Source: a virus
Lineage: Duplodnaviria; Heunggongvirae; Uroviricota; Caudoviricetes
Reading direction: 5' to 3' (one strand)
DNA length: 41,900 nt
IMG/VR virus record: IMGVR_UViG_3300028960_000080
Coordinates: 1 to 41,900 of that record
The position numbers were made by a program, and so were the translations under genes. Below the pieces are notes generated by a model. The model had not been told where the DNA came from. It ran no database searches and saw only the letters and a program-made list of their open reading frames with translations. This document shows, piece after piece, positions 3,995-16,989 of the stretch (position 1 is its first letter; every line of letters begins with the position of its first letter).

Positions 3995-4087
3995 TTTGTT
4001 CTCCACGTATATGCGCTGCACCGCGCTGAGTTCTGGTAAAAGGAAGCCCTCACCATCCGGCGATTATTGAGTCAATTACGTTTCCAT

Positions 4088-4109
4088 AAATGCCCCCGCA
4101 GGGGCATTT
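4088..4109 (-). terminator. Perfect 9-bp stem / 4-nt loop hairpin directly downstream of the DUF2303-like gene (intra-operon attenuator or RNA-stability element)
   Basis: AAATGCCCC-CGCA-GGGGCATTT seen in sequence; only a short U-tract follows on the minus strand, so terminator function is uncertain. Confidence 0.3.
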
Positions 4110-4121
4110 GCAGTAATGAAA

Positions 4122-4946
4122 TCAGGCGGTGAAAGTACCAATAAAGGTTTCTACTTTGCTGTCCTTGAATTTCTCAACAAGCAGATCACGAAATTCGTTA
4201 GCCATTTCTTCCTGCACTGCTTCCAGCTGAATAATGCGCAGAACCAGTACAGGACGATCGCCAGTGATAATGCTGAGGCGTAATTTAAACGGACGTTCTT
4301 TCAGGCCTTCAAACGGAACGCATTTAAATTCAAATGCCACAGGCATAATATCTTTGGTCTTCGCTTCGACAGACTCCATCAGGGAGCGTTTGCCGCTGAA
4401 GTCATTGTCTTCAAAATCAGCGGTCTGGTTTGCTTCAATCGTGATTTTACGGACTGCCGCAGCCGCTTTTGTTGCCTGAATAGCATCACCATTAGCATCA
4501 AAGCCCACAAGGTAGTCGGCCCAGTCTTCGAGCCATTCTGCCAGTGACTTCTGGTAGTTACGCTCACCGTTAACAGACAACAGGGCAGAGAACGGTGCTG
4601 TCTTTTTCAGTTTGAGAGTGGCGGTGTTATCTGCGTGACCTGGTTCATCAATAGTACCCAGGTTAAGTACACTGACGGCACGCATATTATCAGCATCGAT
4701 AAAGCAGCGGGTGCCTTCATCTGCAAGATCTTTAGAATAACGGGTAAAGTCATCGATGCTGGCAGTGGAAAGCGCACCACGGAAACGGAAGCGATTTAAA
4801 TTAAATTTTTCCAGATCATGAATGCGGAAATTCTCAGGCAATGCCACAGCATCGGCACCAATCTTACTGATAATTTCATTAACACCCTGAGCAGAAATAA
4901 GGGCATGGATTTGATTAATTGCGGTTGCGTCTAAGTTCTGAGACAT
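4122..4946 (-). CDS. YfdQ-like (DUF2303-family) phage protein, 274 aa
   Basis: ORF with GAGGA Shine-Dalgarno; resembles the YfdQ family of SfV/CPS-53-like prophages (family assignment from memory). Confidence 0.65.
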
Positions 4947-5011
4947 AATAAGTCCTCACTATATAAAGATATTCAGTGATGAGATAAATAATCAGTTAAT
5001 TAAGAACGATA

Positions 5012-5374
5012 TTAATGACCTGCTGCGCGTAATTTTCCGTCAGGCTCACCGGCAAGAGTCAGTAATTGTCCCTGGTCTTCCTGCAGAATAGTCAGGCGAC
5101 CACCGCGATTGACATACATCGGCGTTTCGGTGGTGTCTTCTTCGGAAATTTTCCCGCGGTTAGTCGGGCGAACATATGAGAGTTTGTGTTTGATTTTCAC
5201 ACGGTTCTCATCAAATGGTTCGATTTCCAGGTTGAGTGAGACCTTACCTTTGGTTTTCGTGTTCATCACACCGGAAGCGACTTCACTGAGAACTGCGCCG
5301 ATTTTGGTTTCAAATACGCCGCCGTCCAGCTCCCCGATAAATGCCTGCACATCAGTACTGCGTTCGCTAGCCAT
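5012..5374 (-). CDS. Hypothetical early protein (120 aa); start set at the internal ATG with a GAGGAG Shine-Dalgarno
   Basis: The 226-aa track ORF has a GC-rich, Arg/Cys-rich N-terminal extension with no ribosome-binding site; the ATG at 5374 is preceded by GAGGAGCAGCAAA. Confidence 0.6.
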   Translation of the reverse strand: MASERSTDVQAFIGELDGGVFETKIGAVLSEVASGVMNTKTKGKVSLNLEIEPFDENRVKIKHKLSYVRPTNRGKISEEDTTETPMYVNRGGRLTILQEDQGQLLTLAGEPDGKLRAAGH

Positions 5375-5399
5375 TTTGCTGCTCCTCATCATATCGACC

Positions 5400-5700
5400 C
5401 TGCAAGGTCGGTTGGTTTCTCCACAAAACAGAGAAGAACACCTGCGGTGGCAGCCGCCCGGATGGATTGGGTTATGAGCCCGTCGTCCGGTGATGCTCTT
5501 CTCTGTTTTGTAAAAAGGACGGTACCAGCCGGAAGCAAGGGTACAAACTGGTACCGCCAGGACTACACACAGCATAAAGTTGTGGTGCCTGGTGCCTCCC
5601 GGTGCCTGGCGAAGGTTGCACACCAGACGGGTGGGTATCCACAGAAGGTCGACTGTCAGCCTCAACCTTAACCCGCGTGCGCTGAGCCGCATTCACCACA
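5400..5700. other. GC-rich structured non-coding region (candidate cis-acting RNA or sRNA) within the leftward early operon
   Basis: Perfect 15-bp inverted repeat 5423..5437 / 5497..5511; 9-bp inverted repeat 5520..5528 / 5548..5556; three GGTGCCT copies at 5584..5607; no ORF with a credible ribosome-binding site. Confidence 0.4.
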
Positions 5701-5811
5701 ACGCCAAGGATTCTCTTTGGTTGAAAATACTTAGCTGTTATGTGCCTGTCTTTTCACCACTTCAGGCTCGGTGGTATCCTTTTAAGCCCGTATACATAAA
5801 AGGAAAATCAA

Positions 5812-6057
5812 ATGACTTTTGATGAAAAAGAACTTGATAATGCAATTAATAAAATCATCGTAACGTCGCTCTTTTCCTGTCTCAGCGACACTCAGCAGAA
5901 ACAGTTCTACGAATCGGCTTTCAACATGATCGAGAGTTGTTGTTTCTGCGATGCCGACGAGTTACCTGAAATAATCAGGAAACAGTTGGCTGATGCTCTT
6001 CGAGTGCGACTTTCTGACCAATTTTCTGAAATGTGCTCTCCGAATTTGGACAAATAG
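5812..6057 (+). CDS. Hypothetical small acidic protein (81 aa), rightward, AT-rich
   Basis: ATG preceded by AAAAGGAAAA; converges on and overlaps the 91-aa minus-strand ORF by 83 nt, so one of the two may be spurious. Confidence 0.35.
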   Translation: MTFDEKELDNAINKIIVTSLFSCLSDTQQKQFYESAFNMIESCCFCDADELPEIIRKQLADALRVRLSDQFSEMCSPNLDK

Positions 6058-6250
6058 AAAAAGGCCATTTCCATTCAGGGTCTGATGGAAATACTTCAGC
6101 CTGTTCCAAAGCACGGCGTAAAGAGAATACAACTCCAGCCATAGCCTGATGTTTCCCATTGGTCCAGCTATCGCCGCTCTGATCTACAGGAGCGGCTATG
6201 TCGTATGACCAAACGACTTCACCACTATTGTTTAAAATCTGGACTTTCAT
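5975..6250 (-). CDS. Hypothetical small protein (91 aa)
   Basis: Strong GGAGG Shine-Dalgarno 8 nt upstream of ATG; co-oriented with cI and the early-left operon. Confidence 0.5.
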   Translation of the reverse strand: MKVQILNNSGEVVWSYDIAAPVDQSGDSWTNGKHQAMAGVVFSLRRALEQAEVFPSDPEWKWPFSICPNSESTFQKIGQKVALEEHQPTVS

Positions 6251-6258
6251 TTTGTTCT

Positions 6259-6480
6259 TTAACCTCCAGATTTCCGCGCATCTAAAGGTGCATTCTCATT
6301 TGGTGTGAACTGAATAGTTGTGCTGATATTGATTAATGCTCCGACACACAAGACTACGCACTCAGAGCAGATAGCAACTTCATCTTTTCCGCCTTTGGCG
6401 ATGATTTTTTTTGCCTGCAGCTCGTTTGCGCCACAAAACGAGCATGTGAAATAACGGTTCATTTGCGCTCTCTTACACAT
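6259..6480 (-). CDS. Small ClpX-type C4 zinc-finger protein (73 aa)
   Basis: CSFCG...(19 aa)...CSEC spacing matches the ClpX N-terminal zinc-binding domain; first gene downstream of the putative pL. Confidence 0.6.
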   Translation of the reverse strand: MCKRAQMNRYFTCSFCGANELQAKKIIAKGGKDEVAICSECVVLCVGALINISTTIQFTPNENAPLDARKSGG

Positions 6481-6646
6481 AGTATTTAACGAATCATCCG
6501 GTCATCCATACGCCACCGGCGGCTACTTCGTGGGCGTCCTGCCTGTTCGTTATCTTTGACATAAAATCTAACTTAACTTAGTTATTATGGCAAGAGAAAA
6601 CACCAAACTTTTCTTAGTTCGGTGCCTTAGTTAGAGAAGAGAGGTC
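6481..6646 (-). promoter_or_regulatory. Candidate oL/pL region
   Basis: Palindrome CTAACTTAACTTAG (6567..6580) resembles the oR palindrome; minus-strand TTGCCA (6592..6587) - 16 nt - TAGATT (6570..6565) overlaps it. Confidence 0.45.
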
Positions 6647-7273
6647 TTAGAGTTCGTATTGAACTCCTTTGACTACACCAATGATAAGGCAATTACCATT
6701 GATAGGGATGTTGGGATACCGAGGATTTAATGGCACTAAAAACTTTTGAGGGCCATCGATGACTAATTTTTTTACTGTAGCTTCGTTTGTTCCATCAAGT
6801 CGAGCGATGACTATTTTTCCATGACGAGGTTCTGCATCTGGATCTACAATCACTGTTGCGCCTTCTGGTATTGTTGGGAGGCCATTAGGGTTAGTCATGG
6901 AGTCACCTTTAACCTCTAATGCAAATGAGTTATCACCAATCTTTAATGATGTATCTACCCACTTGTCCACTTCACTAAACACTTCTGCTGCCCTGCACTC
7001 AGTAAACTGCCCAGCCTGAACCCACGATATTACAGGAACTCTGCGCATGTTTGTGACGAGTTTGCCTTCAAACTCAGCACCATAAAGAATGTAATCTATT
7101 GACGTATTGAAGAACTTCGCTAATTTCGAAAGTGCCTCCCCACCAGGGGTATTGATGTCTTTCTCCCAGTACCCCACAGCAACGTCGCTTACTCCACAAA
7201 ATTTACCCAATTCTTTCTGGGACGTTCTGGTAACTCTTCTCAGAGCTTTTATACGCTGACCAACCGTTTCCAT
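6647..7273 (-). CDS. cI: CI-type repressor (N-terminal HTH, C-terminal S24 LexA-like autopeptidase)
   Basis: HTH region (QKELGKFCGVSDVAVGYWE), GDSM serine motif and downstream Lys (VKKL) typical of S24 repressors; divergent from a cro-like gene. Confidence 0.9.
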   Translation of the reverse strand: METVGQRIKALRRVTRTSQKELGKFCGVSDVAVGYWEKDINTPGGEALSKLAKFFNTSIDYILYGAEFEGKLVTNMRRVPVISWVQAGQFTECRAAEVFSEVDKWVDTSLKIGDNSFALEVKGDSMTNPNGLPTIPEGATVIVDPDAEPRHGKIVIARLDGTNEATVKKLVIDGPQKFLVPLNPRYPNIPINGNCLIIGVVKGVQYEL

Positions 7274-7370
7274 AGGAGCACCATTTCTTGAATTGCTAAG
7301 TAATCTTAGTTTTTATTGACCAAAGATAGATTTGTAATTAGCATCTAATAAAACTTAGTTTGGAGGGCGT
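7274..7370. promoter_or_regulatory. oR/pR/pRM immunity switch region
   Basis: Divergent cI/cro arrangement; palindromes CTAAGTAATCTTAG (7296..7309) and CTAATAAAACTTAG (7345..7358); TTGACC (7316..7321) as candidate pR -35; GGAGGG Shine-Dalgarno before cro. Confidence 0.6.
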
Positions 7371-7571
7371 ATGACAACTGACGATATCGAAAGCTACTTC
7401 GGCAGTATTGAGAAAGTTGCTGCTTTTTTCGGCATAACAACTGAAGCCGTTTATCAGTGGCGAAACCGTCCGGGCCAGTTAATTCCAAAAGGACGTGCAG
7501 CAGAAGCTGCATATAGAACTTGCGGACGGTTGCCATTTAAACCTGAGCTTTATGAAAAATCTAATGGATAA
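7371..7571 (+). CDS. cro: Cro-like HTH regulator (YdaS-like), 66 aa
   Basis: Small HTH protein (AAFFGITTEAVYQWRNR) divergently transcribed from cI. Confidence 0.75.
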   Translation: MTTDDIESYFGSIEKVAAFFGITTEAVYQWRNRPGQLIPKGRAAEAAYRTCGRLPFKPELYEKSNG

Positions 7572-8166
7572 ATCGATTAACAGAAACCACAGAACGATGA
7601 GGCTAACCGTGGGTAAGCATCACTGGAAAGTAGAAAAACAGCCTGAGTGGTACGTGAAAGCTGTCAGAAAAACTATCGCAAAGTTGCCGGGTGGTTACGC
7701 TGAAGCAGCTGACTGGCTGGATGTAACAGAGAACGCATTATTTAACCGCCTTCGTGCTGATGGCGATCAGATTTTCCCGCTGGGATGGGCAATGATTTTG
7801 CAACGTGCTGGTGGAACTCACTTCATTGCTGATGCTGTGGCGCAGTCTGCTAATGGCGTCTTTGTGTCTCTTCCTGACGTCGAGGATGTGGACAACGCCG
7901 ATATTAACCAGCGTCTGCTGGAAGTCATTGAACAGATCGGCAGTTATTCAAAACAGATTCGTTCAGCAATCGAAGACGGTGTAGTGGAACCGCATGAGAA
8001 GACAGCAATTAACGACGAGCTGTATCTCTCAATTTCGAAGCTGCAGGAGCATGCAGCACTTGTCTACAAAATTTTTTGCATTTCAGAAAGTAATGACGCC
8101 CGCGAGTGTGCAGCTCCGGGCGTCGTGGCGTCGATTGCTTCTGGTTGTGGAGAAACTAACGCATGA
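7495..8166 (+). CDS. YdaT-like protein occupying the cII position (start uncertain)
   Basis: ORF following cro; resembles the ydaS-ydaT pairing of Rac-like prophages; the track start is a GTG overlapping cro and alternative ATGs lack a clear ribosome-binding site. Confidence 0.55.
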
Positions 8167-8501
8167 ACAGTTTAACAACACACTACCGTCGCTCGCAACT
8201 GATTGCGCTTCCTGTACCGGGTGGAAAAGCGAAGGTGGAGTATTGCTATGCAGTAAATGTACCAGGTGACAGGGAAATTGTAACCCACAGCTTTGCAGAG
8301 TGGGCTGTGGGTGATTTCAACCGGCAGAAGGAGACAGTCCTTTGCGACAAGTTAACCGCTGGTTCAAAGATCACTACGGAGTGCCCGTCAGAGTCATTCG
8401 TTGGGAGCCGGAAACACAACGGGTTATCTACCTCCGCGAAGGCTATGAGCATGAGTGCTTCAGTCCGCTCGAACAGTTTCGTCGTAAATTCAGGGAAATA
8501 G
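8163..8501 (+). CDS. Hypothetical protein (112 aa), possibly frameshifted or partly spurious
   Basis: ATGA overlap with the upstream gene suggests coupling, but the C-terminal third is Ser-rich low complexity while an alternative frame encodes a protein-like sequence. Confidence 0.35.
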
Positions 8502-8521
8502 AGGTCGGTCATGAGCACTAA
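8342..8521 (+). CDS. Alternative-frame small ORF (59 aa, TTG start) not in the ORF track
   Basis: GAAGGAGA Shine-Dalgarno at 8327..8334, 7-nt spacer, TTG start; translation ...[42 protein letters not shown]; stop overlaps the start of the O-like gene. Confidence 0.35.
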
Positions 8522-9452
8522 ATTAACCGGCTATGTATGGGATGGTTGCGCAGCGTCAGGCATGAAATTATCCAGCGTGGCAATTATGGCCCGCCTGGCT
8601 GATTTCAGTAATGACGAAGGTGTGTGCTGGCCATCAATTGAAACCATTGCCCGCCAGATTGGCGCGGGGATGAGTACCGTCAGAACGGCTATCGCACGGC
8701 TGGAAGCAGAAGGCTGGTTAACGCGTAAGGCGCGTCGCCAGGGTAACCGCAATGCATCGAATGTTTATCAGCTTAACGTTGCGAAGCTTCAGGCAGCGGC
8801 ATTTTCTCAACTGTCAGATTCTGACACGTCAAAATCTGACGCATCAAAATCTGACCCGTCAAAATTTGATGCGTCGAAATCTGGCAAAAAAGCGGGTTTT
8901 CACCCGTCAGAATCTGGCGGGGATCCGTCAGTAAAATCAAAACATGATCCGTCAGATAAAAAAACTTCTCGTCCGGACGCTTCGCAACCGGACACGCAGA
9001 CGGATGAACAGGATTTTTTAACTCGCCATCCTGATGCGGTTGTATTCAGCCCTAAAAAGCGCCAGTGGGGGACGCAGGATGATTTGACCTGCGCACAGTG
9101 GCTCTGGAAAAAAATCATCGCCCTGTACGAGCAGGCCGCCGAATGTGACGGCGAGGTGGTTCGTCCTAAAGAACCGAACTGGACAGCCTGGGCAAACGAA
9201 ATTCGCCTGATGTGTGTGCAGGATGGTCGTACTCACAAACAAATCTGCGAGATGTACAGCCGCGTCAGCCGCGATCCGTTCTGGTGCCGTAACGTGCTCA
9301 GCCCGTCGAAGCTGCGGGAAAAATGGGATGAGCTTTCCCTGCGCTTATCGCCGTCCGTCAGCACGTACACCGAAAAACGCGAAGACCCGTACTTCAAAGC
9401 CAGTTACGACAACGTGGACTACAGCCAAATCCCGGCAGGATTCAGGGGGTGA
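8511..9452 (+). CDS. Replication initiator (lambda O-like: N-terminal winged-helix iteron binder, internal iteron-encoded linker)
   Basis: N-terminal HTH resembling phage replisome organisers; gene contains the iteron array as lambda O contains ori; sits at the O position after cro/cII-like genes. Confidence 0.75.
   Translation: MSTKLTGYVWDGCAASGMKLSSVAIMARLADFSNDEGVCWPSIETIARQIGAGMSTVRTAIARLEAEGWLTRKARRQGNRNASNVYQLNVAKLQAAAFSQLSDSDTSKSDASKSDPSKFDASKSGKKAGFHPSESGGDPSVKSKHDPSDKKTSRPDASQPDTQTDEQDFLTRHPDAVVFSPKKRQWGTQDDLTCAQWLWKKIIALYEQAAECDGEVVRPKEPNWTAWANEIRLMCVQDGRTHKQICEMYSRVSRDPFWCRNVLSPSKLREKWDELSLRLSPSVSTYTEKREDPYFKASYDNVDYSQIPAGFRG
8811..8918 (+). repeat. Origin iterons (about six ~15-bp repeats of consensus cGTCAAAATCTGAC) followed by an A-rich tract
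   Basis: Direct repeats read in sequence: CTGTCAGATTCTGAC, ACGTCAAAATCTGAC, GCATCAAAATCTGAC, CCGTCAAAATTTGAT, GCGTCGAAATCTGGC, CCGTCAGAATCTGGC. Confidence 0.7.
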
Positions 9453-9943
9453 GCATGAGTCTTTTGAATGACGTTCAGAAATTCATTGAAGCCCATCCGG
9501 GCTGTACTTCCGGAGACATTGCGGATGCTTTTGCAGGTTACTCACGGCAGCGCGTTCTGCAGTCAGCAAGCAAGTTACGTCAGAGTGGGCGTGTGGCTCA
9601 CCGTTGTGAAGGAGATACACACAGACATTTCCCGCGCCTGACTGAGAGAGCGCAGGATCCGGAACCACAACCAGTTCGTGAAACCAGACCTGTGCGCAAT
9701 TTCTATGTCGGCACTAACGACCCGCGGGTGATTTTGTGCCTGACCCGCCAGGCGGAAGAACTGGAGTCCAGGGGCTTATACCGTCGTGCTGCAACGGTGT
9801 GGATGGCGGCATTCCGTGAAAGCCACTCCCAGCCAGAACGAAACAATTTTCTGGCGCGTCGTGAACGGTGTTTACGGAAAAGCAGTAAGCGGGCTGCATC
9901 GGGTGAAGAGTGGTATCTGTCAGGGAATTACGTGGGGGCTTAA
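9449..9943 (+). CDS. PerC-family transcriptional regulator-like protein (164 aa)
   Basis: C-terminal GLYRRAATVWMAAF resembles the GLWRRAA..W motif of PerC/Pch regulators (from memory). Confidence 0.55.
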   Translation: MSMSLLNDVQKFIEAHPGCTSGDIADAFAGYSRQRVLQSASKLRQSGRVAHRCEGDTHRHFPRLTERAQDPEPQPVRETRPVRNFYVGTNDPRVILCLTRQAEELESRGLYRRAATVWMAAFRESHSQPERNNFLARRERCLRKSSKRAASGEEWYLSGNYVGA

Positions 9944-10596
9944 TGAGTAATAAATATTGCCAGGCGCTGGTGGAACTGCGGAACAAACCAGCCCATGAAC
10001 TGAAGGAAGTGGGCGATCAGTGGCGCACGCCGGACAACATTTTCTGGGGAATTAACACCCTGTTTGGCCCGTTTGTTCTGGATCTGTTCACTGATGGTGA
10101 TAACGCCAAATGTGCTGCGTATTACACGGCGGAAGACAACGCGCTGGCGCATGACTGGTCAGAACGTCTTGTGGAGCTTAAAGGTGCTGCCTTTGGTAAT
10201 CCCCCATACAGCCGCGCCAGTCAGCATGAGGGGCAATACATCACCGGCATGCGTTACATCATGAAACATGCCAGTGCCATGCGTGATAAGGGTGGGCGCT
10301 ATGTTTTCCTGATCAAAGCTGCCACCAGCGAAGTGTGGTGGCCGGAAGATGCGGACCATATTGCTTTTATTCGCGGGCGTATTGGTTTTGAACTGCCTGC
10401 CTGGTTTATCCCGAAAGATGAGAAGCAGGTGCCGACAGGCGCTTTCTTCGCTGGTGCTATTGCTGTTTTCGACAAGACCTGGAAGGGACCGGCAATCAGC
10501 TACATCGGGCGCGATGAACTTGAGGCATGTGGTGAGGCGTTTCTGGTGCAGGTTCGCCAGCAGGCGGAAAAACTGGTCAGGGAGATGGCGGCATGA
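9943..10596 (+). CDS. Phage N6-adenine DNA methyltransferase (Dam-like)
   Basis: NPPY catalytic motif (FGNPPYSR); start overlaps the upstream stop (TAATG); typical nin-region phage methylase. Confidence 0.88.
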   Translation: MSNKYCQALVELRNKPAHELKEVGDQWRTPDNIFWGINTLFGPFVLDLFTDGDNAKCAAYYTAEDNALAHDWSERLVELKGAAFGNPPYSRASQHEGQYITGMRYIMKHASAMRDKGGRYVFLIKAATSEVWWPEDADHIAFIRGRIGFELPAWFIPKDEKQVPTGAFFAGAIAVFDKTWKGPAISYIGRDELEACGEAFLVQVRQQAEKLVREMAA

Positions 10597-10919
10597 CGAC
10601 GTTAACTCAATGCCAGCAGCAGGTGCTGGATATGCTGATTTCTTACCAGCAAGAACGTGGCTTCCCGCCAACTAATCAGGAGGTGGCAACCATGCTGGGA
10701 TACCGTTCAGTGAATGCAGCGGTGGAGCATCTTCGCGCACTGGAGAAAAAAGGCGTCATCACGATAAAGCGTGGCGTGGCCCGGGGGATAACGCTTCATA
10801 CCGCGGTGAAGGACGACGACAGCGAGGCGGTCGGGATTATCCGCTCACTGCTTGCCGGTGAGGAAAACGCCAGGCAGCGTGCAGCCCACTGGTTACATGA
10901 GAGGGGCCTGAAAGTATGA
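10593..10919 (+). CDS. LexA N-terminal DNA-binding-domain-only protein (108 aa)
   Basis: Residues 1-70 align by eye with the LexA N-terminal winged helix (QQQVLDMLISYQQERGFPPTNQEVATMLGYRSVNAAVEHLRALEKKGVI); no S24 peptidase domain. Confidence 0.7.
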   Translation: MTTLTQCQQQVLDMLISYQQERGFPPTNQEVATMLGYRSVNAAVEHLRALEKKGVITIKRGVARGITLHTAVKDDDSEAVGIIRSLLAGEENARQRAAHWLHERGLKV

Positions 10920-11305
10920 AGCTGATCTTGCCTTTCCCGCCCAGCGTGAACACGTACTGGCGACACCCCAACAAAGGGGCGTTTGCAGGTAAGAGCCTGA
11001 TAAGCGCGGCGGGGCGCAAATTCCAGAGCGCGGCGTGCGCAGCAATAGTTGAGCAGTTACGTCGTCTGCCAAAACCAACGTCGGCACCTGCTTCAGTGGA
11101 GATCGTGTTGTTTCCTCCGGATAACCGGATCCGCGATCTGGACAACTATAACAAGGCGCTGTTTGACGCCCTGACCCACGCGGGTGTGTGGGAAGACGAC
11201 AGTCAGGTGAAAAGAATGCTGGTGGAGTGGGGACCGGTTATCCCGGAAGGGAAGGTCGAGATCACTATCAGTAAGTACGAGAAAACGGCGGGTGCAGCCG
11301 CCTGA
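10916..11305 (+). CDS. rusA: Holliday-junction resolvase RusA
   Basis: RusA-like motifs (PPSVNTYW, RDLDNYNKALFDALT) and size; nin-region position. Confidence 0.9.
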   Translation: MKLILPFPPSVNTYWRHPNKGAFAGKSLISAAGRKFQSAACAAIVEQLRRLPKPTSAPASVEIVLFPPDNRIRDLDNYNKALFDALTHAGVWEDDSQVKRMLVEWGPVIPEGKVEITISKYEKTAGAAA

Positions 11306-11324
11306 TTAAGAGGAGAAACGAAGT

Positions 11325-12167
11325 ATGAATAATCTGATGGTCATTGATGGTATTGAAGTTCGTCGTGATGCTTATGGACGTTATAGCCTGAACGATCTGC
11401 ATCGCGCAGCAGTAGCATCTGGTGCAAATGCCAGAACCAAGGAGCCGGGAAAGTTTCTTTCCAGCCAACAGATTACTGAGCTGGTTCAGGAATTGATCGA
11501 TACCCAAAATCTGGGTGTCGGTTCATTCAATGAAACTACCCAAAATTTGGGTAGTAAACCTGTCAGTAAAATAGAAGGGCGGAATGGCGGAACATATGTC
11601 TGTAAGGAACTGGTGTATGCCTATGCAATGTGGATCAGCCCGTCATTCCATCTGAAAGTGATCCGTACTTTCGATATGGTAACCAGCGCACCGGAAAAAT
11701 TATCCGGGCAGGCTGCTGACAAGATGCAGGCTGGAGTGATTCTGCTGGACTTTATGCGCAGGGAGTTAAACCTGTCTAACTCTTCAGTGCTTGGTGCCTG
11801 TCAGAAACTCCAGGAGGCTGTTGGCTTACCGAATCTGGCACCGCGCTATGCCATTGATGCTCCTGCTGACGCGCCTGATGGCTCAAGCCGCCCCACGCTG
11901 TCACTGAGTGCACTGCTGAAGCAGTATGGTATCCGCCTGACAGCTAATCAGGCATATCACCAGATGGTGAAGCTGGGGATCGTCGAGCAGCGCGAACGAT
12001 ACAGCCGTACCGCGATTAACAACATCAAAAAATTCTGGTCGCTAACGGCGAAAGGCTGCATGTTCGGCAAGAACATCACCAGTCCCGCAAATCCGCGCGA
12101 GACGCAGCCGCATTTCTTCGAATCCCGATTCCCTGAGCTGTTAAAGCTGCTCGATACCGTTCATTGA
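11325..12167 (+). CDS. KilA-N domain protein (antirepressor-like)
   Basis: N-terminal KilA-N-like region (GTYVCKELVYAYAMWISPSFHLKVIRTF); strong AGGAG Shine-Dalgarno. Confidence 0.7.
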   Translation: MNNLMVIDGIEVRRDAYGRYSLNDLHRAAVASGANARTKEPGKFLSSQQITELVQELIDTQNLGVGSFNETTQNLGSKPVSKIEGRNGGTYVCKELVYAYAMWISPSFHLKVIRTFDMVTSAPEKLSGQAADKMQAGVILLDFMRRELNLSNSSVLGACQKLQEAVGLPNLAPRYAIDAPADAPDGSSRPTLSLSALLKQYGIRLTANQAYHQMVKLGIVEQRERYSRTAINNIKKFWSLTAKGCMFGKNITSPANPRETQPHFFESRFPELLKLLDTVH

Positions 12168-12168
12168 G

Positions 12169-13164
12169 GTGACCGTGAGAGCACTACTGACCCCTGAAAT
12201 TGCCCCGCGTATGGGGATCGTATTGTTCAGACCAGGTTCAGAGCTGATGCCCCTGTTTATGCAGGGGCATGTCCTGCTGGAGCCTGAGCCGGAACGTTAT
12301 TCATCTTTCGCCAGTGGTGCCGTTCCGGCGGCATCACAACCGCTGGCGGATGATCCTGCCGTTCGGGCCGTGTTCCGCAATGAGGCAGTGATCCGTCGTG
12401 CTGGTGGCGTGGAATGTCTTGAAAGCTGGTTACTTCGTGAAAAAGGCTGCCAGTGGCCTCATTCCGACTGGCACAGCGAGAACATGACAACAATGCGACA
12501 CGCGCCGGGCGCAATCCGTCTGTGCTGGCACTGCGATAACCAGTTGCGCGATCAGTTCACGGAACGGCTGGAATCAATGGCAACGGATAACTGTGCCCGC
12601 TGGGTGTTGTCTGTTGTGCGTCTGGATCTCGGTTTTGATGACAGTCACGTTGTGACAATGCCGGAACTGTGCTGGTGGCTGATTCGTAATGATCTGGCGG
12701 ATGCCTTACCGGAAAGTGCAGCCCGTAAGGCACTGAGATTACCGAAGCCTGTTGTGCCGTCTGTCACCCGGGAAAGTGATCTTGTGCCTTCGGTTCCTGC
12801 CACCAGCATCATCCAGGATAAAGCGAAAAAGGTGCTGGCGCTGAAAGTGGATCCGGAGTCGCCGGAGTCTTTTATGTTACGCCCTAAACGTCGCCGCTGG
12901 GTTAACGAAAAGTACACGCGCTGGGTTAAGACGCAGCCGTGTGCATGTTGTGGAAAGCCTGCTGATGATCCCCACCACCTGATAGGTCACGGTCAGGGTG
13001 GAATGGGTACAAAAGCGCATGACCTCTTTGTGTTGCCTTTGTGCAGAAAGCATCACGACGAGCTGCATGCGGATACCGTGGCATTTGAAGAGAAGTATGG
13101 CTCCCAGCTGGAGCTGATATTTCGTTTTATCGACCGTGCGTTGGCAATTGGTGTGCTAGCCTGA
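12169..13164 (+). CDS. DUF968-like phage protein with C-terminal HNH/zinc-binding-like motif
   Basis: C-terminal CACCGKPADDPHHL...CRKHHDELH motif; lies between the KilA-N gene and Q; GTG start with adjacent GAGG. Confidence 0.55.
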   Translation: MTVRALLTPEIAPRMGIVLFRPGSELMPLFMQGHVLLEPEPERYSSFASGAVPAASQPLADDPAVRAVFRNEAVIRRAGGVECLESWLLREKGCQWPHSDWHSENMTTMRHAPGAIRLCWHCDNQLRDQFTERLESMATDNCARWVLSVVRLDLGFDDSHVVTMPELCWWLIRNDLADALPESAARKALRLPKPVVPSVTRESDLVPSVPATSIIQDKAKKVLALKVDPESPESFMLRPKRRRWVNEKYTRWVKTQPCACCGKPADDPHHLIGHGQGGMGTKAHDLFVLPLCRKHHDELHADTVAFEEKYGSQLELIFRFIDRALAIGVLA

Positions 13165-13181
13165 TTTGGTGGAGAAAGTTG

Positions 13182-13535
13182 ATGTGTGATATGTATGAAG
13201 TATTAGACCGTTGGGGAGCGTGGGCTGCGGCAGAGAACAGTGGTGTGGATTGGCAACCGGTAGCCGCTGGCTTCAAGGGGCTTTTACCTCATGGCAGAAA
13301 GTCCCGGATTCAGTGCGATGATGATGAAGGCATCATGATTGATGGCTGTGTCGCCCGCCTGCGGAAGTATAAACCAGAAGAATATGAGCTGATCATTGCT
13401 CATTTTGTGATTGGTATCTCATTACGCACCATTGCTAAGAAAAGAAAATGCTCTGATGGAGCAATTAGAAAAGAGCTTCAGGGAGCTATAGGGTTTATAT
13501 CAGGTATTCTATTATTGTTAGGCGAAGCCCTCTAG
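13182..13535 (+). CDS. Q: Late antiterminator Q (phage 82 / QuuD type)
   Basis: VLDRWGAWAA...AAGFKGL...RIQCDDD...GCVARLRK closely resembles DLP12 QuuD as I recall it; ATG at 13182 with GGAGA Shine-Dalgarno. Confidence 0.8.
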   Translation: MCDMYEVLDRWGAWAAAENSGVDWQPVAAGFKGLLPHGRKSRIQCDDDEGIMIDGCVARLRKYKPEEYELIIAHFVIGISLRTIAKKRKCSDGAIRKELQGAIGFISGILLLLGEAL

Positions 13536-13545
13536 GGCTCCGCTT
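13522..13545. terminator. Short hairpin between convergent Q and methyltransferase genes (possible bidirectional terminator)
   Basis: AGCCC-TCTA-GGGCT stem-loop followed by CCGCTTTTAAAG; weak stem. Confidence 0.3.
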
Positions 13546-14586
13546 TTAAAGTGATGCGATGATAGCCCTTCCAAGAGCTTCAGCCATCTTGGGAGGGACT
13601 GCATTCCCTATCTGTTTGGCTTTCGAGACTAAAGAGCCTGTGAAGGAATAGTCTAATGGGAAAGTCTGTAATAACGCAGCCTCTCTAACAGAAATAGCCC
13701 TATCTTGCTCTGGATGTCCGAAACGTCCATTCGAATAGCTTATACATCTAGTTGTTAATCCACTTGCTGGTTTGTCCCAAGAAAGCCGTCCATAAACATC
13801 AGTATGCCCTTTATATTTTTTATGGCATTTTAGTATAAGTTCTTCAGGCCAAGATTCTCTACCTTTTCCCTCAGGAGTCGCTTTAATACGTTTAATATTT
13901 AGATCAGATAGTTTGGCTGCTGTATGATCCATAACATCTTTATGAGTTTCACCGGCAGCAATAGGAGGTAATCCGCCGATCCAGTCTCTGACAGTTGCAT
14001 ACGGAGTTTTTAACCCATCATGAGTTTGTGATGGAAGCTTAATATTCGTGTGTTTTGACGCCAGTAAAACAAAACGTTCACGTGTTTGAGGAACCCCGAA
14101 CCACAACGCAGGAATCACACCAAAATCAACGTTGTAGTGATGATGTGCTAAAACCTCAAGAAATTTCTGGAAATTTCCATTGTTAATATCGACATTTTGG
14201 ATTCCTGGTACATTCTCTACCAGTACAAAGTCTGGCGTATAATAAGAGACAAACCGTGCAAACTCAGTAAGCAGATCTTTTCTCGGATCATCCTCGTTCC
14301 GTATTTTATTTTGTTTCGAGAATGGTTGACATGGAGCACAACCACAAAATAGGGTTAGAGCTTTGCTTTGTGTTGACGCACAAACCAGATGCTTAATTTC
14401 CTCAACGTGTGTATCTTTGATATCACCATTGATAAAATGTGCAAATGGATTATTCATTTTAAAGGTGTTAGCGGAATCTAGATCAATATCTAAACCGAAA
14501 ATAATTTCCATTCCCACCGCTTTTAGGCCTACACTGGTTCCGCCGCAGCCGGAAAAGAAATCGTAAACGTGTATCTTTTTAGCCAT
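13546..14586 (-). CDS. DNA cytosine-C5 methyltransferase (Dcm-like)
   Basis: Canonical C5-MTase motifs in order: I (DFFSGCGG), IV (GCAPCQPFS, catalytic Cys), VI (LVENV), VIII (QTRERFVLL); AT-rich by eye. Confidence 0.92.
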   Translation of the reverse strand: MAKKIHVYDFFSGCGGTSVGLKAVGMEIIFGLDIDLDSANTFKMNNPFAHFINGDIKDTHVEEIKHLVCASTQSKALTLFCGCAPCQPFSKQNKIRNEDDPRKDLLTEFARFVSYYTPDFVLVENVPGIQNVDINNGNFQKFLEVLAHHHYNVDFGVIPALWFGVPQTRERFVLLASKHTNIKLPSQTHDGLKTPYATVRDWIGGLPPIAAGETHKDVMDHTAAKLSDLNIKRIKATPEGKGRESWPEELILKCHKKYKGHTDVYGRLSWDKPASGLTTRCISYSNGRFGHPEQDRAISVREAALLQTFPLDYSFTGSLVSKAKQIGNAVPPKMAEALGRAIIASL

Positions 14587-14589
14587 TAT

Positions 14590-16380
14590 CTACCTCACTC
14601 TTGGTCTGATAGTATCATTATCTAAAAAGATTTGCAGCAACTCTCGAGTTTTTGTTAACACTTCATGATTATTTGGTATTTTATTAAGAATTCTGATTTG
14701 TGTTTCAAAGATATCGTCACTGGTAACGTTCTCCAACCCTGTGTCTAACTTACAAAGTTCTTTGGTGATTTCTTTAGCATCTTGAATGTTTTTGGGGATT
14801 TGATCTTTATATTCTTTATAATCACCATGAACATTCTCAATAAGAAATGCTTCAGGAGTATAAACAGGAAGAAAAGCAATTTTATCGTGGATGAAATCGA
14901 TAAAATTTCTTTGCATTGTGTATTTTTGATTGTTATTTGATGAGCCATTAGAACCATCACAACTAAATTTTATATCCTGATTGGTTATTTCTTTTATGAT
15001 GTTTTGAAGGTTTGTGTTTTGATTTTCTGGTATGGAATCAGAAGTTGGATAATCATCAGTTCTCGATTGGTCACCATCTAATAAGAAAATAACGTTTTTA
15101 ACATTGGCAACACATAAAGGCACAGCCAAAGTTTGAAGAATACTTCCCGCTCCTCCAGGAACATGTTTTACTTCGAAGGAGTTTAATAATGCTTCACCAC
15201 CCGCTTTAAGCGCCTTTTCTACAAACCTCTTCGCTAACCGATCTTCTACAATAACGGTTCTTTTATCAATGCGTTCACCAAGAATAAAGAAAGATTCTTC
15301 TGGACTGACATTTTGAAGAACATCAACCTTTCCTATTTTATCATTCAGACAGAATAATTTTATGGCATTTTTAGGCAAGTCTTTTACTATTGTTGATGAA
15401 TGTGTGGATATGACAATTTGATGTTTCTTTTTAAGTGCTTGTTCTGATAAAAATTCCATCAATTGACATTGAGCAGAAGGGTGAAGTGATACTTCAGGTT
15501 CATCTAGCAGAATTAAAGATGCATCAGGGCTATCCATTAGTTTATGCACTAATATAGATACAGCAAATTCCCCACTGCCTGCGAAAGCTTCAGAATATTT
15601 TAAGTTTTCTGATTGAAGAATAATTGTGGGAGCTTTGTCATTAGTGAATAAGCTATGTTCAATAAGGCGGATGCTTGTGTATTTGCGACCTAAAATCTTG
15701 CTGATTGCCTCTACCTTACTTTTTTCTAATAAAGTGTTAACAAATAGCTTGTCTTTTTTTCCTTTATGAGGTTGATATTTTTTAAGATCGTTATCTATAA
15801 TGTCTTTTAGCATCTGACTGCGTTTTCTAAGATAATCTTTCTTAGGGTATGTATGAAAATCAGAGTGATAAAAGAACTTATCAAATGCACTGATAGTTGC
15901 TCTGAAATCTAAATATATTACATTTTTGTCAATAGCTTTCCACCTGGTCCTTAGTTGATTGGTTGAGATTTTTGTACTAGGCATTGGAGCCATGTTGTCG
16001 GATTTTAATGGTCTGGATGGTTCCCAGTAATCAGGATCATTTTCTTTAGAGATTCGAGTTTTAATTACTTCAACAATTGAATCAGTAGCTTTGTCATAAT
16101 ATCCATAAATAAATCTAGAACGACCACCATCTTTAATCTCATCTACATCTGTAGAAAACCATAAGCTACCCAGAGAATAGTTGTTTGGAGAACCGAATAG
16201 GGCTCTTAAAACAGAACTTTTATTGGTTCCGTTTTGACCAACTAATGCTGTAATTGGATACTCAAAATCAATCTTGCTACCCTCTGCAAGGTTTTTAAAA
16301 AAAGGAAAACGAATATGTCTAATAAATGGCTCAATTTTAGACGATGCCATAATTTTCTTTAGTTTTAATTCTGTGCTCAT
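14590..16380 (-). CDS. ABC-type ATPase fused to a TOPRIM-like nuclease domain (OLD-family-like / fused PARIS-like), 596 aa
   Basis: Walker A (GQNGTNKSS), Walker B (LILLDEPEVSLHP), H-loop (ISTHS) in the N-terminal half; C-terminal TVIVED and FLLDGDQ fit the TOPRIM Glu and DxD motifs; 3-nt gap to the methyltransferase gene; start could instead be the ATG at 16350. Confidence 0.8.
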   Translation of the reverse strand: MSTELKLKKIMASSKIEPFIRHIRFPFFKNLAEGSKIDFEYPITALVGQNGTNKSSVLRALFGSPNNYSLGSLWFSTDVDEIKDGGRSRFIYGYYDKATDSIVEVIKTRISKENDPDYWEPSRPLKSDNMAPMPSTKISTNQLRTRWKAIDKNVIYLDFRATISAFDKFFYHSDFHTYPKKDYLRKRSQMLKDIIDNDLKKYQPHKGKKDKLFVNTLLEKSKVEAISKILGRKYTSIRLIEHSLFTNDKAPTIILQSENLKYSEAFAGSGEFAVSILVHKLMDSPDASLILLDEPEVSLHPSAQCQLMEFLSEQALKKKHQIVISTHSSTIVKDLPKNAIKLFCLNDKIGKVDVLQNVSPEESFFILGERIDKRTVIVEDRLAKRFVEKALKAGGEALLNSFEVKHVPGGAGSILQTLAVPLCVANVKNVIFLLDGDQSRTDDYPTSDSIPENQNTNLQNIIKEITNQDIKFSCDGSNGSSNNNQKYTMQRNFIDFIHDKIAFLPVYTPEAFLIENVHGDYKEYKDQIPKNIQDAKEITKELCKLDTGLENVTSDDIFETQIRILNKIPNNHEVLTKTRELLQIFLDNDTIRPRVR

Positions 16381-16411
16381 TTTTTATACTGAAATGGTTG
16401 CAAGGTAATGT

Positions 16412-16440
16412 ATTTTACGAAAATGCTAACGCGTACGCAA
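16412..16440 (-). promoter_or_regulatory. Candidate sigma-70 promoter for the Q-S cassette (TTGCGT - 17 nt - TAAAAT)
   Basis: Read on the minus strand: -35 at 16440..16435, -10 at 16417..16412, about 30 nt upstream of the ATG at 16380. Confidence 0.4.
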
Positions 16441-16485
16441 AAATCATTGTAATCTGTTAAGAGTGGTTACTTCGCCACACAGCTT

Positions 16486-16515
16486 AAACCCGCCGTCGAG
16501 CGGGTTTTGTCGTTT
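16486..16515 (+). terminator. tR'-like intrinsic terminator upstream of the lysis genes (end of a short late leader RNA)
   Basis: CCCGC-CGTCGA-GCGGG hairpin followed by TTTTGTCGTTTC on the plus strand; no upstream plus-strand gene nearby; position matches lambda pR'-6S-tR' architecture. Confidence 0.55.
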
Positions 16516-16659
16516 CTGGGGCTGGGGATTCGTTGGTCCTTGCCTATTCCGCAGTTATCCATTGGTTCGGCTTCTTTGACGTTTCCGCTTCTGATTTGCG
16601 GTACATGATGTTTCCTCAATTTGCACCTGCTGTATCAGCGAGGTGAGAGATAACTACAA

Positions 16660-16986
16660 ATGCCTCATAACCCAAATACCTGGCTGGAGTTGGTCCAGAG
16701 CTGGTGGCGTGGAGACACACCGCTGGGCGCAGTGATTATGTCGATTGTTATGGCTGGTTTACGTATCGCCTATTTTGGCGGTGGTGGCGGCTGGAAGCGA
16801 AAAACACTCGAAATTCTACTCTGTGGCGCTCTGACGCTGACTTTTGCATCCGCTCTTGAGTATGTCGGATGGCCTAAATCACTATCTGTTGCCATTGGTG
16901 GTGGGGTGGGGCTGATCGGTGTCGATGCTATTCGTGGGGCTGCAATGCGAGTAATCGGTAACAAATTTGGTGGCTCTAAGGAGTAA
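16660..16986 (+). CDS. Putative holin (108 aa)
   Basis: Small hydrophobic protein with Gly-rich membrane segments immediately upstream of the endolysin; not lambda S-like. Confidence 0.65.
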   Translation: MPHNPNTWLELVQSWWRGDTPLGAVIMSIVMAGLRIAYFGGGGGWKRKTLEILLCGALTLTFASALEYVGWPKSLSVAIGGGVGLIGVDAIRGAAMRVIGNKFGGSKE

Positions 16987-16989
16987 TTT

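What the first reader, a model, noticed from the sequence alone, without database searches (positions are those of the whole stretch)
10593..10919. LexA DNA-binding-domain-only protein in the nin-like region
The 108-aa protein matches the LexA N-terminal winged-helix domain by eye but lacks the S24 autopeptidase domain, so it would be an uncleavable binder of LexA-type operators. A phage-encoded LexA mimic could repress host SOS genes or phage genes independently of RecA, or heterodimerise with host LexA. It is translationally coupled to rusA (ATGA overlap).
Basis: partly seen in the sequence, partly recalled or inferred. Interest (0 to 1): 0.45.

Follow-up and report, generated by a model that had tools for sequence, protein, structure and literature searches.

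The report
Protease-less LexA-like phage DNA binder
A prophage gene encodes a small protein that keeps only the DNA-binding half of LexA, the bacterial DNA-damage switch; it is real, very common in E. coli phages and already catalogued, but nobody has shown which DNA it binds.

Summary
The ORF at 10593-10919 (+) encodes a 108-aa protein. Residues 1-70 are a LexA winged-helix domain (Pfam E=2.5e-19; about 50% identical to E. coli LexA; model rmsd 1.0 Å to 3JSO). There is no S24 protease domain. ATGA overlaps join it to dam upstream and rusA downstream.

It is not new as a sequence. The same gene (≥95% nt) is in 2233 of 5426 complete E. coli genomes and about 50 phage records (SfV orf42, cdtI, mEp460, SfII/SfIV, Stx2c/Stx2a phages). 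It is annotated "LexA family transcriptional regulator" (PHROG 362). I found no functional study.

- A conserved, selected two-helix C-terminal tail (dN/dS about 0.18).
- A fixed module LexN-RusA-(KilA-N)-DUF968 that moves between phages with different immunity, replication and Q modules.
- Four of the five LexA base-contact residues are kept. Glu44 is conserved in 21/24 true LexA relatives but is never kept in this family (0/102).
- The prophage has no SOS box.

The "uncleavable LexA-type DNA binder" reading is therefore plausible. Strict SOS-box mimicry is doubtful, and heterodimerisation with LexA is unsupported. The closest characterised analogue is GIL01 gp6, a truncated LexA homologue with diverged specificity.

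The parts
10593..10919 (+). CDS of the 108-aa LexA-N-terminal-domain-only protein (called 'LexN' here), stop codon included
   Evidence: ORF list and sequence; Pfam PF01726 E=2.5e-19; PHROG 362 full length, E=2e-59
10593..10802 (+). Residues 1-70: winged helix-turn-helix of LexA type (helices 6-22, 28-35, 40-52; wing strands 56-58 and 66-68)
   Evidence: AF2 model; Foldseek top hits are LexA 3jso/1lea, rmsd 1.0-1.2 Å; phmmer against PDB
10707..10748 (+). Residues 39-52: recognition helix region SVNAAVEHLRALEK. Ser39, Asn41, Ala42 and Glu45 are kept; Pro40 is Val and Glu44 is Val relative to E. coli LexA SPNAAEEHLKALAR
   Evidence: Ungapped alignment to 1lea; family alignments; contact residues as listed in PMC3091678
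10815..10901 (+). Residues 75-103: conserved C-terminal two-helix tail (helices 75-87 and 93-103). It is absent from GIL01 gp6 and replaces the LexA S24 domain; a dimerisation role is inferred
   Evidence: AF2 pLDDT about 86 for these blocks; conserved L86, L87, A93, A97, W100, L101; dN/dS 0.18 in the sister clade
10593..10596 (+). ATGA overlap: dam stop / LexN start
   Evidence: Sequence
10916..10919 (+). ATGA overlap: LexN stop / rusA start. The same ATGA ending is present in 121 of 123 related loci
   Evidence: Sequence; locus survey
9910..10596 (+). Upstream phage N6-adenine methyltransferase (Dam). It is not part of the conserved module and is missing in phages Ayreon and 2H10
   Evidence: Pfam PF05869 E=1.2e-45; mosaic joints
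10916..11305 (+). RusA Holliday-junction resolvase, translationally coupled downstream gene
   Evidence: Pfam PF05866 E=6e-15; follows the LexN-type gene in 95 of 125 loci
11325..12167 (+). KilA-N domain protein, an optional member of the module
   Evidence: Pfam PF04383 E=6.8e-21; present in 16 of 125 loci
12169..13164 (+). DUF968 protein (Orf/NinB-like plus HNH), the most constant partner of the LexN-type gene
   Evidence: Pfam PF06147 E=3.5e-81; within 4 kb in 120 of 125 loci; family described in PMC4118853
13179..13535 (+). Q-type antiterminator, marking the end of the nin-type region
   Evidence: Homologous position annotated as Q in SfII and in E. coli RM10466
6647..7273 (-). cI-type prophage repressor with an S24 autopeptidase domain (Ala-Gly in VQAGQ, GDSM, VKKL). 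It makes expression of the rightward operon, including LexN, SOS-dependent in a lysogen
   Evidence: NCBIfam hits to UmuD/LexA C-terminal domain and DicA; translation

Best explanation
The gene encodes a RecA-insensitive, sequence-specific DNA-binding regulator. It descends from a bacterial lexA gene that lost its S24 protease/dimerisation domain. Shown: residues 1-70 are a LexA-type winged helix. Similarity to LexA continues through the linker and cleavage-site region to about residue 92. The catalytic domain is gone and is replaced by a short two-helix tail that is conserved and under purifying selection. The gene lies in the rightward early operon, between the replication genes and Q, and overlaps its neighbours. 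It belongs to a 2.6-kb module (LexN-RusA-KilA-N-DUF968) that is exchanged intact among otherwise different lambdoid phages. Inferred: in a lysogen it is made only after RecA-stimulated cleavage of the S24-type cI, which is when host LexA has been destroyed, and it is also made on infection. It probably binds a palindromic operator as a dimer, with the tail supplying the contacts that LexA gets from its C-terminal domain. Because Glu44 is systematically replaced by a small hydrophobic residue, the operator is probably related to the SOS box but not identical to it. The regulator is 95-99% conserved across phages whose immunity, replication, Q/late-promoter and structural modules differ. Its target should therefore be equally invariant, meaning the host chromosome or its own module. 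Whether it represses or activates is unknown.
For: Domain identity and fold. No S24 domain, and the TIGR00498 match stops at model position 92. The tail is conserved across relatives of 40-52% identity, with dN/dS 0.18, like the wHTH at 0.20. Invariant across the family: Ser39, Asn41, His46, Lys53, Arg64, Gly65. Position 44 is never Glu (0/102 and 0/18), whereas it is Glu in 21/24 S24-bearing LexA relatives. Operon position and ATGA coupling. Module synteny. Mosaic joints fall exactly at the LexN start codon and after DUF968, with all other regulatory modules different in cdtI, Ayreon and 2H10. SOS-inducible cI. No SOS box in the prophage. Precedent: GIL01 gp6 is a truncated LexA homologue that evolved its own palindromic site (PMC6182141), and it is homologous to this family (hhalign probability 96%).
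Against: No DNA-binding data exist, and I could not identify an operator. Palindrome and promoter scans of the intergenic regions and of the module gave nothing above chance. Dimerisation through the tail is an inference from amphipathic conservation only, because no multimer model could be run. Four of the five LexA contact residues are retained in this sub-family, so canonical SOS boxes may still be bound. The mosaicism argument is weakened by other shared blocks (2981-5559, 7585-8199, 9377-9946), which could carry a target.
Confidence: 0.5

Rival explanations
1. True SOS-box mimic. The protein binds canonical CTGT-N8-ACAG boxes on the host chromosome and, being uncleavable, re-imposes repression of SOS genes while host LexA is destroyed. 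Targets could include LexA-controlled antirepressors of rival prophages or colicin lysis genes.
For: It is about 50% identical to the E. coli LexA N-terminal domain without gaps. Ser39, Asn41, Ala42 and Glu45, the wing residues Arg64 and Gly65, and Lys53 are retained. It is expressed only after cI cleavage or on infection. There is no SOS box in the phage itself, so a LexA-like specificity would point to host targets. The mosaic distribution fits an invariant host target. From established knowledge (Neher et al. 2003, Genes Dev), the LexA N-terminal cleavage fragment keeps residual repressor activity and is removed by ClpXP, so a stable copy of it could repress.
Against: Glu44, the best-conserved recognition-helix residue in real LexA proteins (21/24), is never kept in this family (0/102, 0/18). 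Glu45 is lost in about 38% of the wider family. Under mimicry, selection should hold both. The LexA dimerisation domain is missing. The characterised analogue gp6 binds a different site.
Confidence: 0.25
2. gp6-like activator or repressor of a phage promoter. The protein recognises a phage-borne site and times late or accessory gene expression, as GIL01 gp6 does at the P3 promoter.
For: The only characterised truncated phage LexA homologue works this way (PMC6182141). PHROG and RefSeq label the family as a transcriptional repressor or regulator.
Against: Near-identical copies occur with different immunity regions, Q genes, late-promoter regions and lysis and structural modules. A phage operator would therefore have to lie inside the 10593-13170 module, which has almost no non-coding DNA. 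Its best palindrome (11535-11555) falls in a segment that is not shared with phage 2H10. Lambdoid late expression is already accounted for by Q.
Confidence: 0.12
3. Non-transcriptional DNA-binding accessory of the recombination module, for example targeting or modulating RusA or the Orf-like HNH protein DUF968 on DNA.
For: Synteny and translational coupling with RusA (95/125 loci; ATGA in 121/123) and with DUF968 (120/125) persist down to 40% identity. DUF968 is related to the recombination mediator Orf (PMC4118853). A variant with a different C-terminal domain sits at the same position before rusA.
Against: Synteny in tightly packed phage operons is weak evidence of a physical partnership. 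The invariant recognition-helix residues (Ser39, Asn41, His46) suggest base-specific reading rather than structure-specific binding. In one clade RusA is absent.
Confidence: 0.08
4. Poisoning host LexA by heterodimerisation, or acting as a pseudo-substrate through the retained Ala-Gly motif (LLAGEE aligned with the LexA cleavage site VAAGEP).
For: phmmer and TIGR00498 align residues 78-92 with the LexA linker and cleavage-site region, including A88-G89-E90.
Against: The LexA dimer interface lies in the absent C-terminal domain. Gly89 is Asn or Lys in some close homologues and Ala88 is Val in one, and the motif is absent from distant members. AF2 predicts this segment as a helix, not the LexA hairpin.
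Confidence: 0.03
5. A decaying lexA fragment without function.
For: It looks like a truncated lexA, and some pipelines even call it 'LexA repressor and protease'.
Against: It is intact in 2233 E. coli genomes at 95% nt identity or more. Its architecture is conserved down to 40% identity. dN/dS is about 0.2 for both halves. The coupled start and stop codons are conserved.
Confidence: 0.02

Closest known systems
E. coli LexA repressor (N-terminal domain; PDB 1LEA, 3JSO)
   Same: Same winged-helix fold (rmsd 1.0 Å). About 50% identity over residues 2-69 without gaps. Ser39, Asn41, Ala42, Glu45, Lys53, Arg64 and Gly65 are retained. Similarity continues through the linker to the Ala-Gly region.
   Different: No S24 autopeptidase/dimerisation domain, so it has no RecA-stimulated cleavage and no canonical dimer. 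Glu44 is Val and Pro40 is Val. A two-helix tail takes the place of the C-terminal domain. It is phage-encoded in an early lytic operon, and no SOS box lies in front of it.
Bacillus phage GIL01 gp6 (66 aa; PMC6182141)
   Same: A phage-encoded, truncated LexA homologue consisting of the DNA-binding domain only. It is homologous to this family (hhalign probability 96%, 33% identity over 63 columns). It is made from an early operon after SOS induction.
   Different: gp6 has no C-terminal tail. It comes from a tectivirus of a Gram-positive host and is closest to its own host's LexA, which implies an independent capture. Its function is known: it activates the late promoter P3 by binding GaCACAnnTGTGaC. 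BLASTP detects no pairwise similarity.
PHROG 362 / RefSeq WP_000210187 'LexA family transcriptional regulator' (SfV orf42, cdtI orf48, mEp460, SfII_44, Stx2c and Stx2a phages)
   Same: This is the same protein: 94-99% amino-acid identity, the same length and the same neighbours.
   Different: Nothing structural. These are annotations only, and I found no functional study. Some records mislabel it as 'SOS-response repressor and protease LexA' or 'RecA-mediated autopeptidase'.
LexA N-terminal cleavage fragment (residues 1-84) of E. coli
   Same: The same domain without the C-terminal domain. The fragment is known to retain weak operator binding (established knowledge: Little and co-workers; Neher et al. 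2003).
   Different: The host fragment ends in a ClpXP degradation signal and is removed. The phage protein has a different, conserved C-terminal extension. Whether it is stable was not tested.
Anti-SOS or SOS-modulating proteins of mobile elements (plasmid PsiB, phage/prophage DinI, GIL01 gp7)
   Same: They share the possible biological aim of damping or reshaping the host SOS response during the element's own DNA transactions. DinI genes occur in some phages that carry this gene (cdtI, 2H10).
   Different: Those proteins act on RecA or on LexA protein, not on DNA, and share no sequence or fold with this protein.

Membership tests
LexA repressor proper (TIGR00498 equivalog) | N-terminal LexA-type winged-helix DNA-binding domain (PF01726) | tested here: met
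   PF01726 E=2.5e-19 over the full model; rmsd 1.0 Å to 3jso
LexA repressor proper (TIGR00498 equivalog) | C-terminal S24 peptidase domain with a Ser119/Lys156 dyad | tested here: not met
   The protein ends at residue 108. There is no Peptidase_S24 hit. TIGR00498 scores 71 bits against a cut-off of 111 and matches model positions 1-92 only
LexA repressor proper (TIGR00498 equivalog) | Ala-Gly self-cleavage site | tested here: inconclusive
   A88-G89 aligns with LexA A84-G85. However, Gly89 is Asn or Lys in some close homologues and Ala88 is Val in one, and the motif is absent in distant ones. It is irrelevant without a catalytic domain in cis
LexA repressor proper (TIGR00498 equivalog) | Base-contacting residues Ser39, Asn41, Ala42, Glu44, Glu45 | tested here: not met
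   Four of five are kept. Glu44 is Val here and is never Glu in the family, against 21/24 in S24-bearing relatives
LexA repressor proper (TIGR00498 equivalog) | Binds CTGT-N8-ACAG SOS boxes and autoregulates through a box at its own promoter | tested here: inconclusive
   There is no SOS box anywhere in the window. The best PWM score of 9.6 bits is below the weakest reference box (13.5) and below the mean maximum in shuffles. Actual binding is not testable with these tools
Phage LexA_DNA_bind-only proteins (PHROG 362) | Full-length match to the family profile; about 105-110 aa; wHTH plus conserved tail | tested here: met
   PHROG 362 E=2e-59, residues 1-108 against profile positions 1-106 of 106; 94-99% identity to annotated members
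Phage LexA_DNA_bind-only proteins (PHROG 362) | Position in the nin-type region, overlapping the downstream gene (usually rusA) and near DUF968 | tested here: met
GIL01 gp6-type truncated LexA activators | Phage-encoded LexA homologue lacking the C-terminal domain | tested here: met
GIL01 gp6-type truncated LexA activators | Close sequence relationship to gp6 (same lineage), including Lys38 in the recognition helix | tested here: not met
   BLASTP finds no alignment and hhalign gives 33% identity. The residue aligned to gp6 Lys38 is Asn41, as in LexA. Each protein is closer to its own host's LexA, so these look like independent captures
GIL01 gp6-type truncated LexA activators | Binds a palindrome at the phage late promoter and activates it | not testable with these tools
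   No candidate site was found. The late-promoter regions differ among phages carrying the same protein

The most novel reading that the evidence does not exclude
The protein is an uncleavable 'SOS re-silencer'. It is produced from the early operon just as RecA has destroyed host LexA. It then occupies SOS-type operators on the chromosome and shuts down part of the SOS regulon, for example LexA-controlled antirepressors of competing prophages, colicin lysis genes, SOS-induced defence or mutagenesis genes. Because it sits in about 41% of complete E. coli genomes, including Stx2a and Stx2c phages, it would be a widespread phage-encoded modifier of the SOS response, of prophage competition and possibly of Shiga-toxin output.
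Probability: 0.2. Interest if true: 0.7.

Novelty: new member of a known kind. Interest (0 to 1): 0.33.

Why it matters
If this protein binds host SOS-type operators, a large fraction of E. coli and Shigella lysogens, including Shiga-toxin phage carriers, would hold a RecA-proof regulator. It could reshape the DNA-damage response during induction, with consequences for mutagenesis, prophage competition and toxin release. If instead it has its own operator, it is a second, independent case (after tectivirus gp6) of a phage capturing the host LexA DNA-binding domain and retargeting it. That would give a natural experiment in how a winged helix changes specificity, here through position 44. Either way the experiment is cheap (EMSA or ChIP plus an SOS reporter), and the gene is uncharacterised despite its prevalence. 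As a sequence observation it is ordinary, because the gene is already annotated everywhere.

Tried and rejected
1. SOS-box search. There is no exact CTGT-N8-ACAG. One-mismatch hits (23 against 13.6 expected) all lie in coding DNA with GC-rich spacers. A PWM built from E. coli boxes recalled from memory gave a best score of 9.6 bits. That is below the weakest real box (13.5) and below the mean maximum of shuffled sequence (12.4).

2. Apparent enrichment of CTG-N10-CAG. There are 26 sites against 9.7 expected from dinucleotide shuffles. I rejected this as a codon-usage artefact, because spacings of 2-24 give 13-38 sites and N10 is unremarkable.

3. Operator hunt. Inverted repeats and promoter-like sites in 5600-17000, and dyads in all intergenic regions, showed nothing distinctive or LexA-like. 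The perfect palindrome at 11535-11555 inside the KilA-N gene is not shared by phage 2H10.

4. The search for related loci with the mixed alignment failed for lack of a conserved stretch. I replaced it with three single-protein scans.

5. Pairwise BLASTP against gp6 found nothing. A profile comparison did.

6. Trans-cleavage or pseudo-substrate idea from the aligned Ala-Gly. Rejected because the motif is not conserved and is predicted helical.

7. Heterodimerisation with LexA. Rejected because the interface domain is absent.

8. Literature. Eight full-text searches found no functional study of this protein. The Zhang et al. 2010 LexA-DNA paper was not available, so the contact residues are taken from a secondary source.

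9. PADLOC gave only a sub-threshold CARF-like wHTH hit, which I judged meaningless.
Full report
**Observation.**
The ORF at 10593..10919 (+) is present exactly as described: ATG start, 108 codons, TGA stop. Its start overlaps the stop of the upstream Dam methyltransferase gene (GC-ATGA-CG). Its stop overlaps the start of rusA (GT-ATGA-AG). Pfam LexA_DNA_bind covers residues 1-65 end to end (E=2.5e-19). Dam, RusA, KilA-N and DUF968 domains identify the neighbours. phmmer against PDB sequences aligns residues 2-69 to E. coli LexA without gaps at about 50% identity (E about 7e-16). An AlphaFold2 model (mean pLDDT 80.8) has the LexA topology: three helices and a two-strand wing. It superposes on LexA in the LexA-DNA crystal 3JSO at 1.0 Å over 68 residues. 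There is no S24 peptidase domain. The curated LexA equivalog TIGR00498 scores 71 bits (cut-off 111) and matches only model positions 1-92 of 203.

**Genomic setting.**
- The window is a complete lambdoid prophage at the lambda attachment site. It lies between a ybhC-like pectinesterase-family gene and a ybhB-like PEBP gene.
- It has a lambda-type integrase at the left end and gtrA/gtrB O-antigen modification genes at the right end.
- It is closest to Shigella phages SfII and SfIV and coliphage mEp460.
- The gene lies in the rightward early operon. The order is cro / ymfL-like / O-like replication gene / PerC / Dam / this gene / RusA / KilA-N / DUF968 / Q.
- The prophage repressor (6647-7273, minus strand) has an XRE helix-turn-helix and an S24 domain with an Ala-Gly site and the GDSM and VKKL motifs. 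In a lysogen the operon, and so this protein, is expressed after RecA-stimulated repressor cleavage. That is when host LexA is also being cleaved (inference from the standard lambdoid induction pathway).

**How common and how known.**
- The same gene at 95% nucleotide identity or more is in 2233 of 5426 complete E. coli genomes, where RefSeq calls it "LexA family transcriptional regulator" (WP_000210187).
- It is in about 50 phage records: SfV (orf42, "unknown"), cdtI, mEp460, SfII, SfIV, Ayreon, 2H10, fifteen Stx2c phages and several Stx2a/Stx2k phages.
- It matches PHROG 362 ("transcriptional repressor") over its whole length (E=2e-59).
- A survey of Stx phages lists a "LexA family transcriptional regulator, pfam01726" phamily in 15 phages without functional comment (PMC8136144).
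- Some records mislabel it "SOS-response repressor and protease LexA" or "RecA-mediated autopeptidases".
- Eight full-text searches found no experimental work on it.
- Small LexA-DNA-binding-domain-only proteins are common in predicted phage proteomes generally.

After the wing and a low-confidence linker (residues 71-75), the model has two helices, 75-87 and 93-103, at pLDDT about 86. This tail is conserved in the 18 close homologues (L86, L87, A93, R96, A97, L101 invariant).

An exhaustive HMMER search found relatives of only 40-52% identity with the same architecture, 105-135 aa long, and a shared tail pattern: hydrophobic-hydrophobic-R-x-L-L ... A-x-x-x-A-x-x-W/F-L. In a sister clade with DNA in hand (68 unique genes), dN/dS is 0.20 for the winged helix and 0.18 for the tail. 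The tail is therefore a selected, functional part.

HMMER aligns tail residues 78-92 with the LexA linker and cleavage-site region, LLAGEE against VAAGEP. This suggests descent from a lexA gene truncated just after that region. The Ala-Gly is not conserved in the family, and the segment is predicted helical. I do not read it as a cleavage site. I infer, but could not test, that the amphipathic hairpin supplies dimer contacts in place of the missing LexA C-terminal domain.

**DNA-contact residues.**
The residues of E. coli LexA listed as DNA-contacting are Ser39, Asn41, Ala42, Glu44 and Glu45 (PMC3091678). The protein has Ser39, Asn41, Ala42, Val44 and Glu45, and Pro40 is Val.

Across 102 unique family members taken from 123 viral loci:
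- Ser39, Asn41, His46, Lys53, Arg64 and Gly65 are invariant.
- Position 44 is Ala, Val or Phe and never Glu.
- Position 45 is Glu in 63, and Ala, Leu or Ser in most of the rest.

Among the LexA relatives from the same database search that carry an S24 domain, position 44 is Glu in 21 of 24. Pro40 is not diagnostic, because true LexA proteins have Pro, Ala, Val or Ile there. The family has therefore kept the scaffold, the wing and two base-reading residues, but has systematically given up the best-conserved acidic residue of the recognition helix. I read this as a shifted or relaxed specificity, not as proof that SOS boxes cannot be bound.

**Search for targets.**
- The window has no exact CTGT-N8-ACAG.
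- A position weight matrix built from twenty E. coli SOS boxes (recalled from memory, so approximate) scores at best 9.6 bits. That is below the weakest reference box (13.5) and below the average best score in shuffled sequence (12.4).
- An apparent excess of CTG-N10-CAG (26 against 9.7) is a codon-usage artefact, since other spacings give 13-38.
- Inverted-repeat, promoter and dyad scans gave nothing distinctive.

So if the protein reads SOS-like sites, they are not on this phage.

**Synteny and mosaicism.**
- Among the 125 related loci from viral contigs, 121 of the 123 from which the gene could be extracted end in ATGA overlapping the next gene.
- RusA follows in 95 loci, and DUF968 lies within 4 kb in 120. 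DUF968 is an Orf/NinB-like domain fused to an HNH nuclease (PMC4118853).
- One clade has a small ORF instead of RusA.
- Another clade has the same winged helix joined to a different 90-residue C-terminal domain, still overlapping rusA.
- Against the full genomes of phages cdtI, Ayreon and 2H10, the window shares 10593-13154 at 95-97%. In Ayreon and 2H10 the joint falls exactly at this gene's start codon. The immunity, replication, Q, lysis and structural modules are unrelated.

A regulator this conserved across such mosaics most likely acts on something equally invariant: the host chromosome or its own 2.6-kb module. Other shared blocks (2981-5559, 7585-8199, 9377-9946) weaken this argument somewhat.

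**Mechanism.**
My best-supported account (confidence about 0.5) is a RecA-insensitive, LexA-derived, sequence-specific DNA-binding regulator. It is made in the delayed-early phase, probably dimerises through its tail, and reads an operator related to but not identical with the SOS box.

The rivals are:
- Strict SOS-box mimic, about 0.25. For it: overall similarity, the timing of expression, and the known residual repressor activity of the LexA N-terminal fragment, which the cell removes with ClpXP (established knowledge). Against it: the family-wide loss of Glu44.
- gp6-like role at a phage promoter, about 0.12.
- Accessory role in the RusA/DUF968 recombination module, about 0.08.
- Heterodimerisation with LexA, about 0.03, because the LexA dimer interface is in the absent domain.
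- Decaying pseudogene, about 0.02, excluded by the conservation data.

**Comparison with the known.**
The closest characterised system is GIL01 gp6. It is a 66-aa truncated LexA homologue that binds its own palindrome at the late promoter and activates it (PMC6182141). The two are homologous (hhalign probability 96%, 33% identity), but pairwise BLASTP does not detect the relationship. Each is nearer to its own host's LexA, so they look like independent captures. gp6 lacks the tail. This protein is not a LexA by membership: the S24 domain and Glu44 both fail the test.

**Verdict.**
The gene is a catalogued member of the class of phage LexA-DNA-binding-domain-only proteins. The reading as a real, uncleavable LexA-type DNA binder holds. 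Its target and its effect on SOS remain open and would be easy to test.

Noticed in passing
window 13546-16380 (minus strand): Between Q and the holin lies a two-gene cargo on the opposite strand. One gene is a Dcm-type C5 cytosine methyltransferase (13546-14586; TIGR00675 8.6e-42; PADLOC MTase_II 6.8e-91). The other is a 596-aa OLD/Gabija/PtuA-like ABC ATPase (14590-16380; PADLOC HEC-04 2e-36, ATPase-Toprim_I-B 1e-24). This is probably a defence moron at the Q-S hotspot; other phages carry different cargo there.
   Followed up: partly
window 8813-8875: There are tandem inverted repeats of GTCAAAATCTGAC inside the O-like replication gene (8511-9452). They look like origin iterons.
   Followed up: no
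L005-L012, about 4001-4477 (e.g. L007): A variant at the same position, also overlapping rusA by ATGA, joins the LexA-type winged helix (about 60% identical over residues 1-68) to an unrelated C-terminal domain of about 90 residues (158 aa in total). This suggests the DNA-binding head is combined with alternative tails.
   Followed up: partly
window 10593 and about 13154-13229: Mosaic recombination joints with phages Ayreon and 2H10 fall exactly at the LexN start codon and just after DUF968. They define a 2.6-kb exchangeable module, LexN-RusA-KilA-N-DUF968, and Dam is outside it.
   Followed up: yes
window 1-1284, 1336-1359, 1419-2489 and 41424-41900: The prophage sits at the lambda attachment site. 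It is flanked by a ybhC-like gene and a ybhB-like PEBP gene, has a lambda-type integrase with an arm-binding domain, and carries a TTTATAC-containing core-like sequence at 1336-1359. Yet it also carries gtrA/gtrB serotype-conversion genes (39699-40975).
   Followed up: partly
public records matched: Annotation errors are propagated in databases. This protease-less protein is called 'SOS-response repressor and protease LexA' or 'RecA-mediated autopeptidases'. The neighbouring Dam methyltransferase is called 'phosphoadenosine phosphosulfate reductase' in RefSeq phage records and in PHROG 33262.
   Followed up: no
window 16234-16262 and 16486-16507: A promoter-like site is followed by a GC-rich hairpin plus a T-run just upstream of the holin gene. 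This is probably the late promoter and its leader terminator, the target of Q, displaced 3 kb from Q by the inserted cargo.
   Followed up: no
L128 26458-26706; L130 26202-26450: Two phages that carry this gene (cdtI and 2H10) also carry a DinI-like RecA-filament-binding gene near the integrase. The window's prophage does not. This is possibly a second SOS-modulating function in the same phage group.
   Followed up: no
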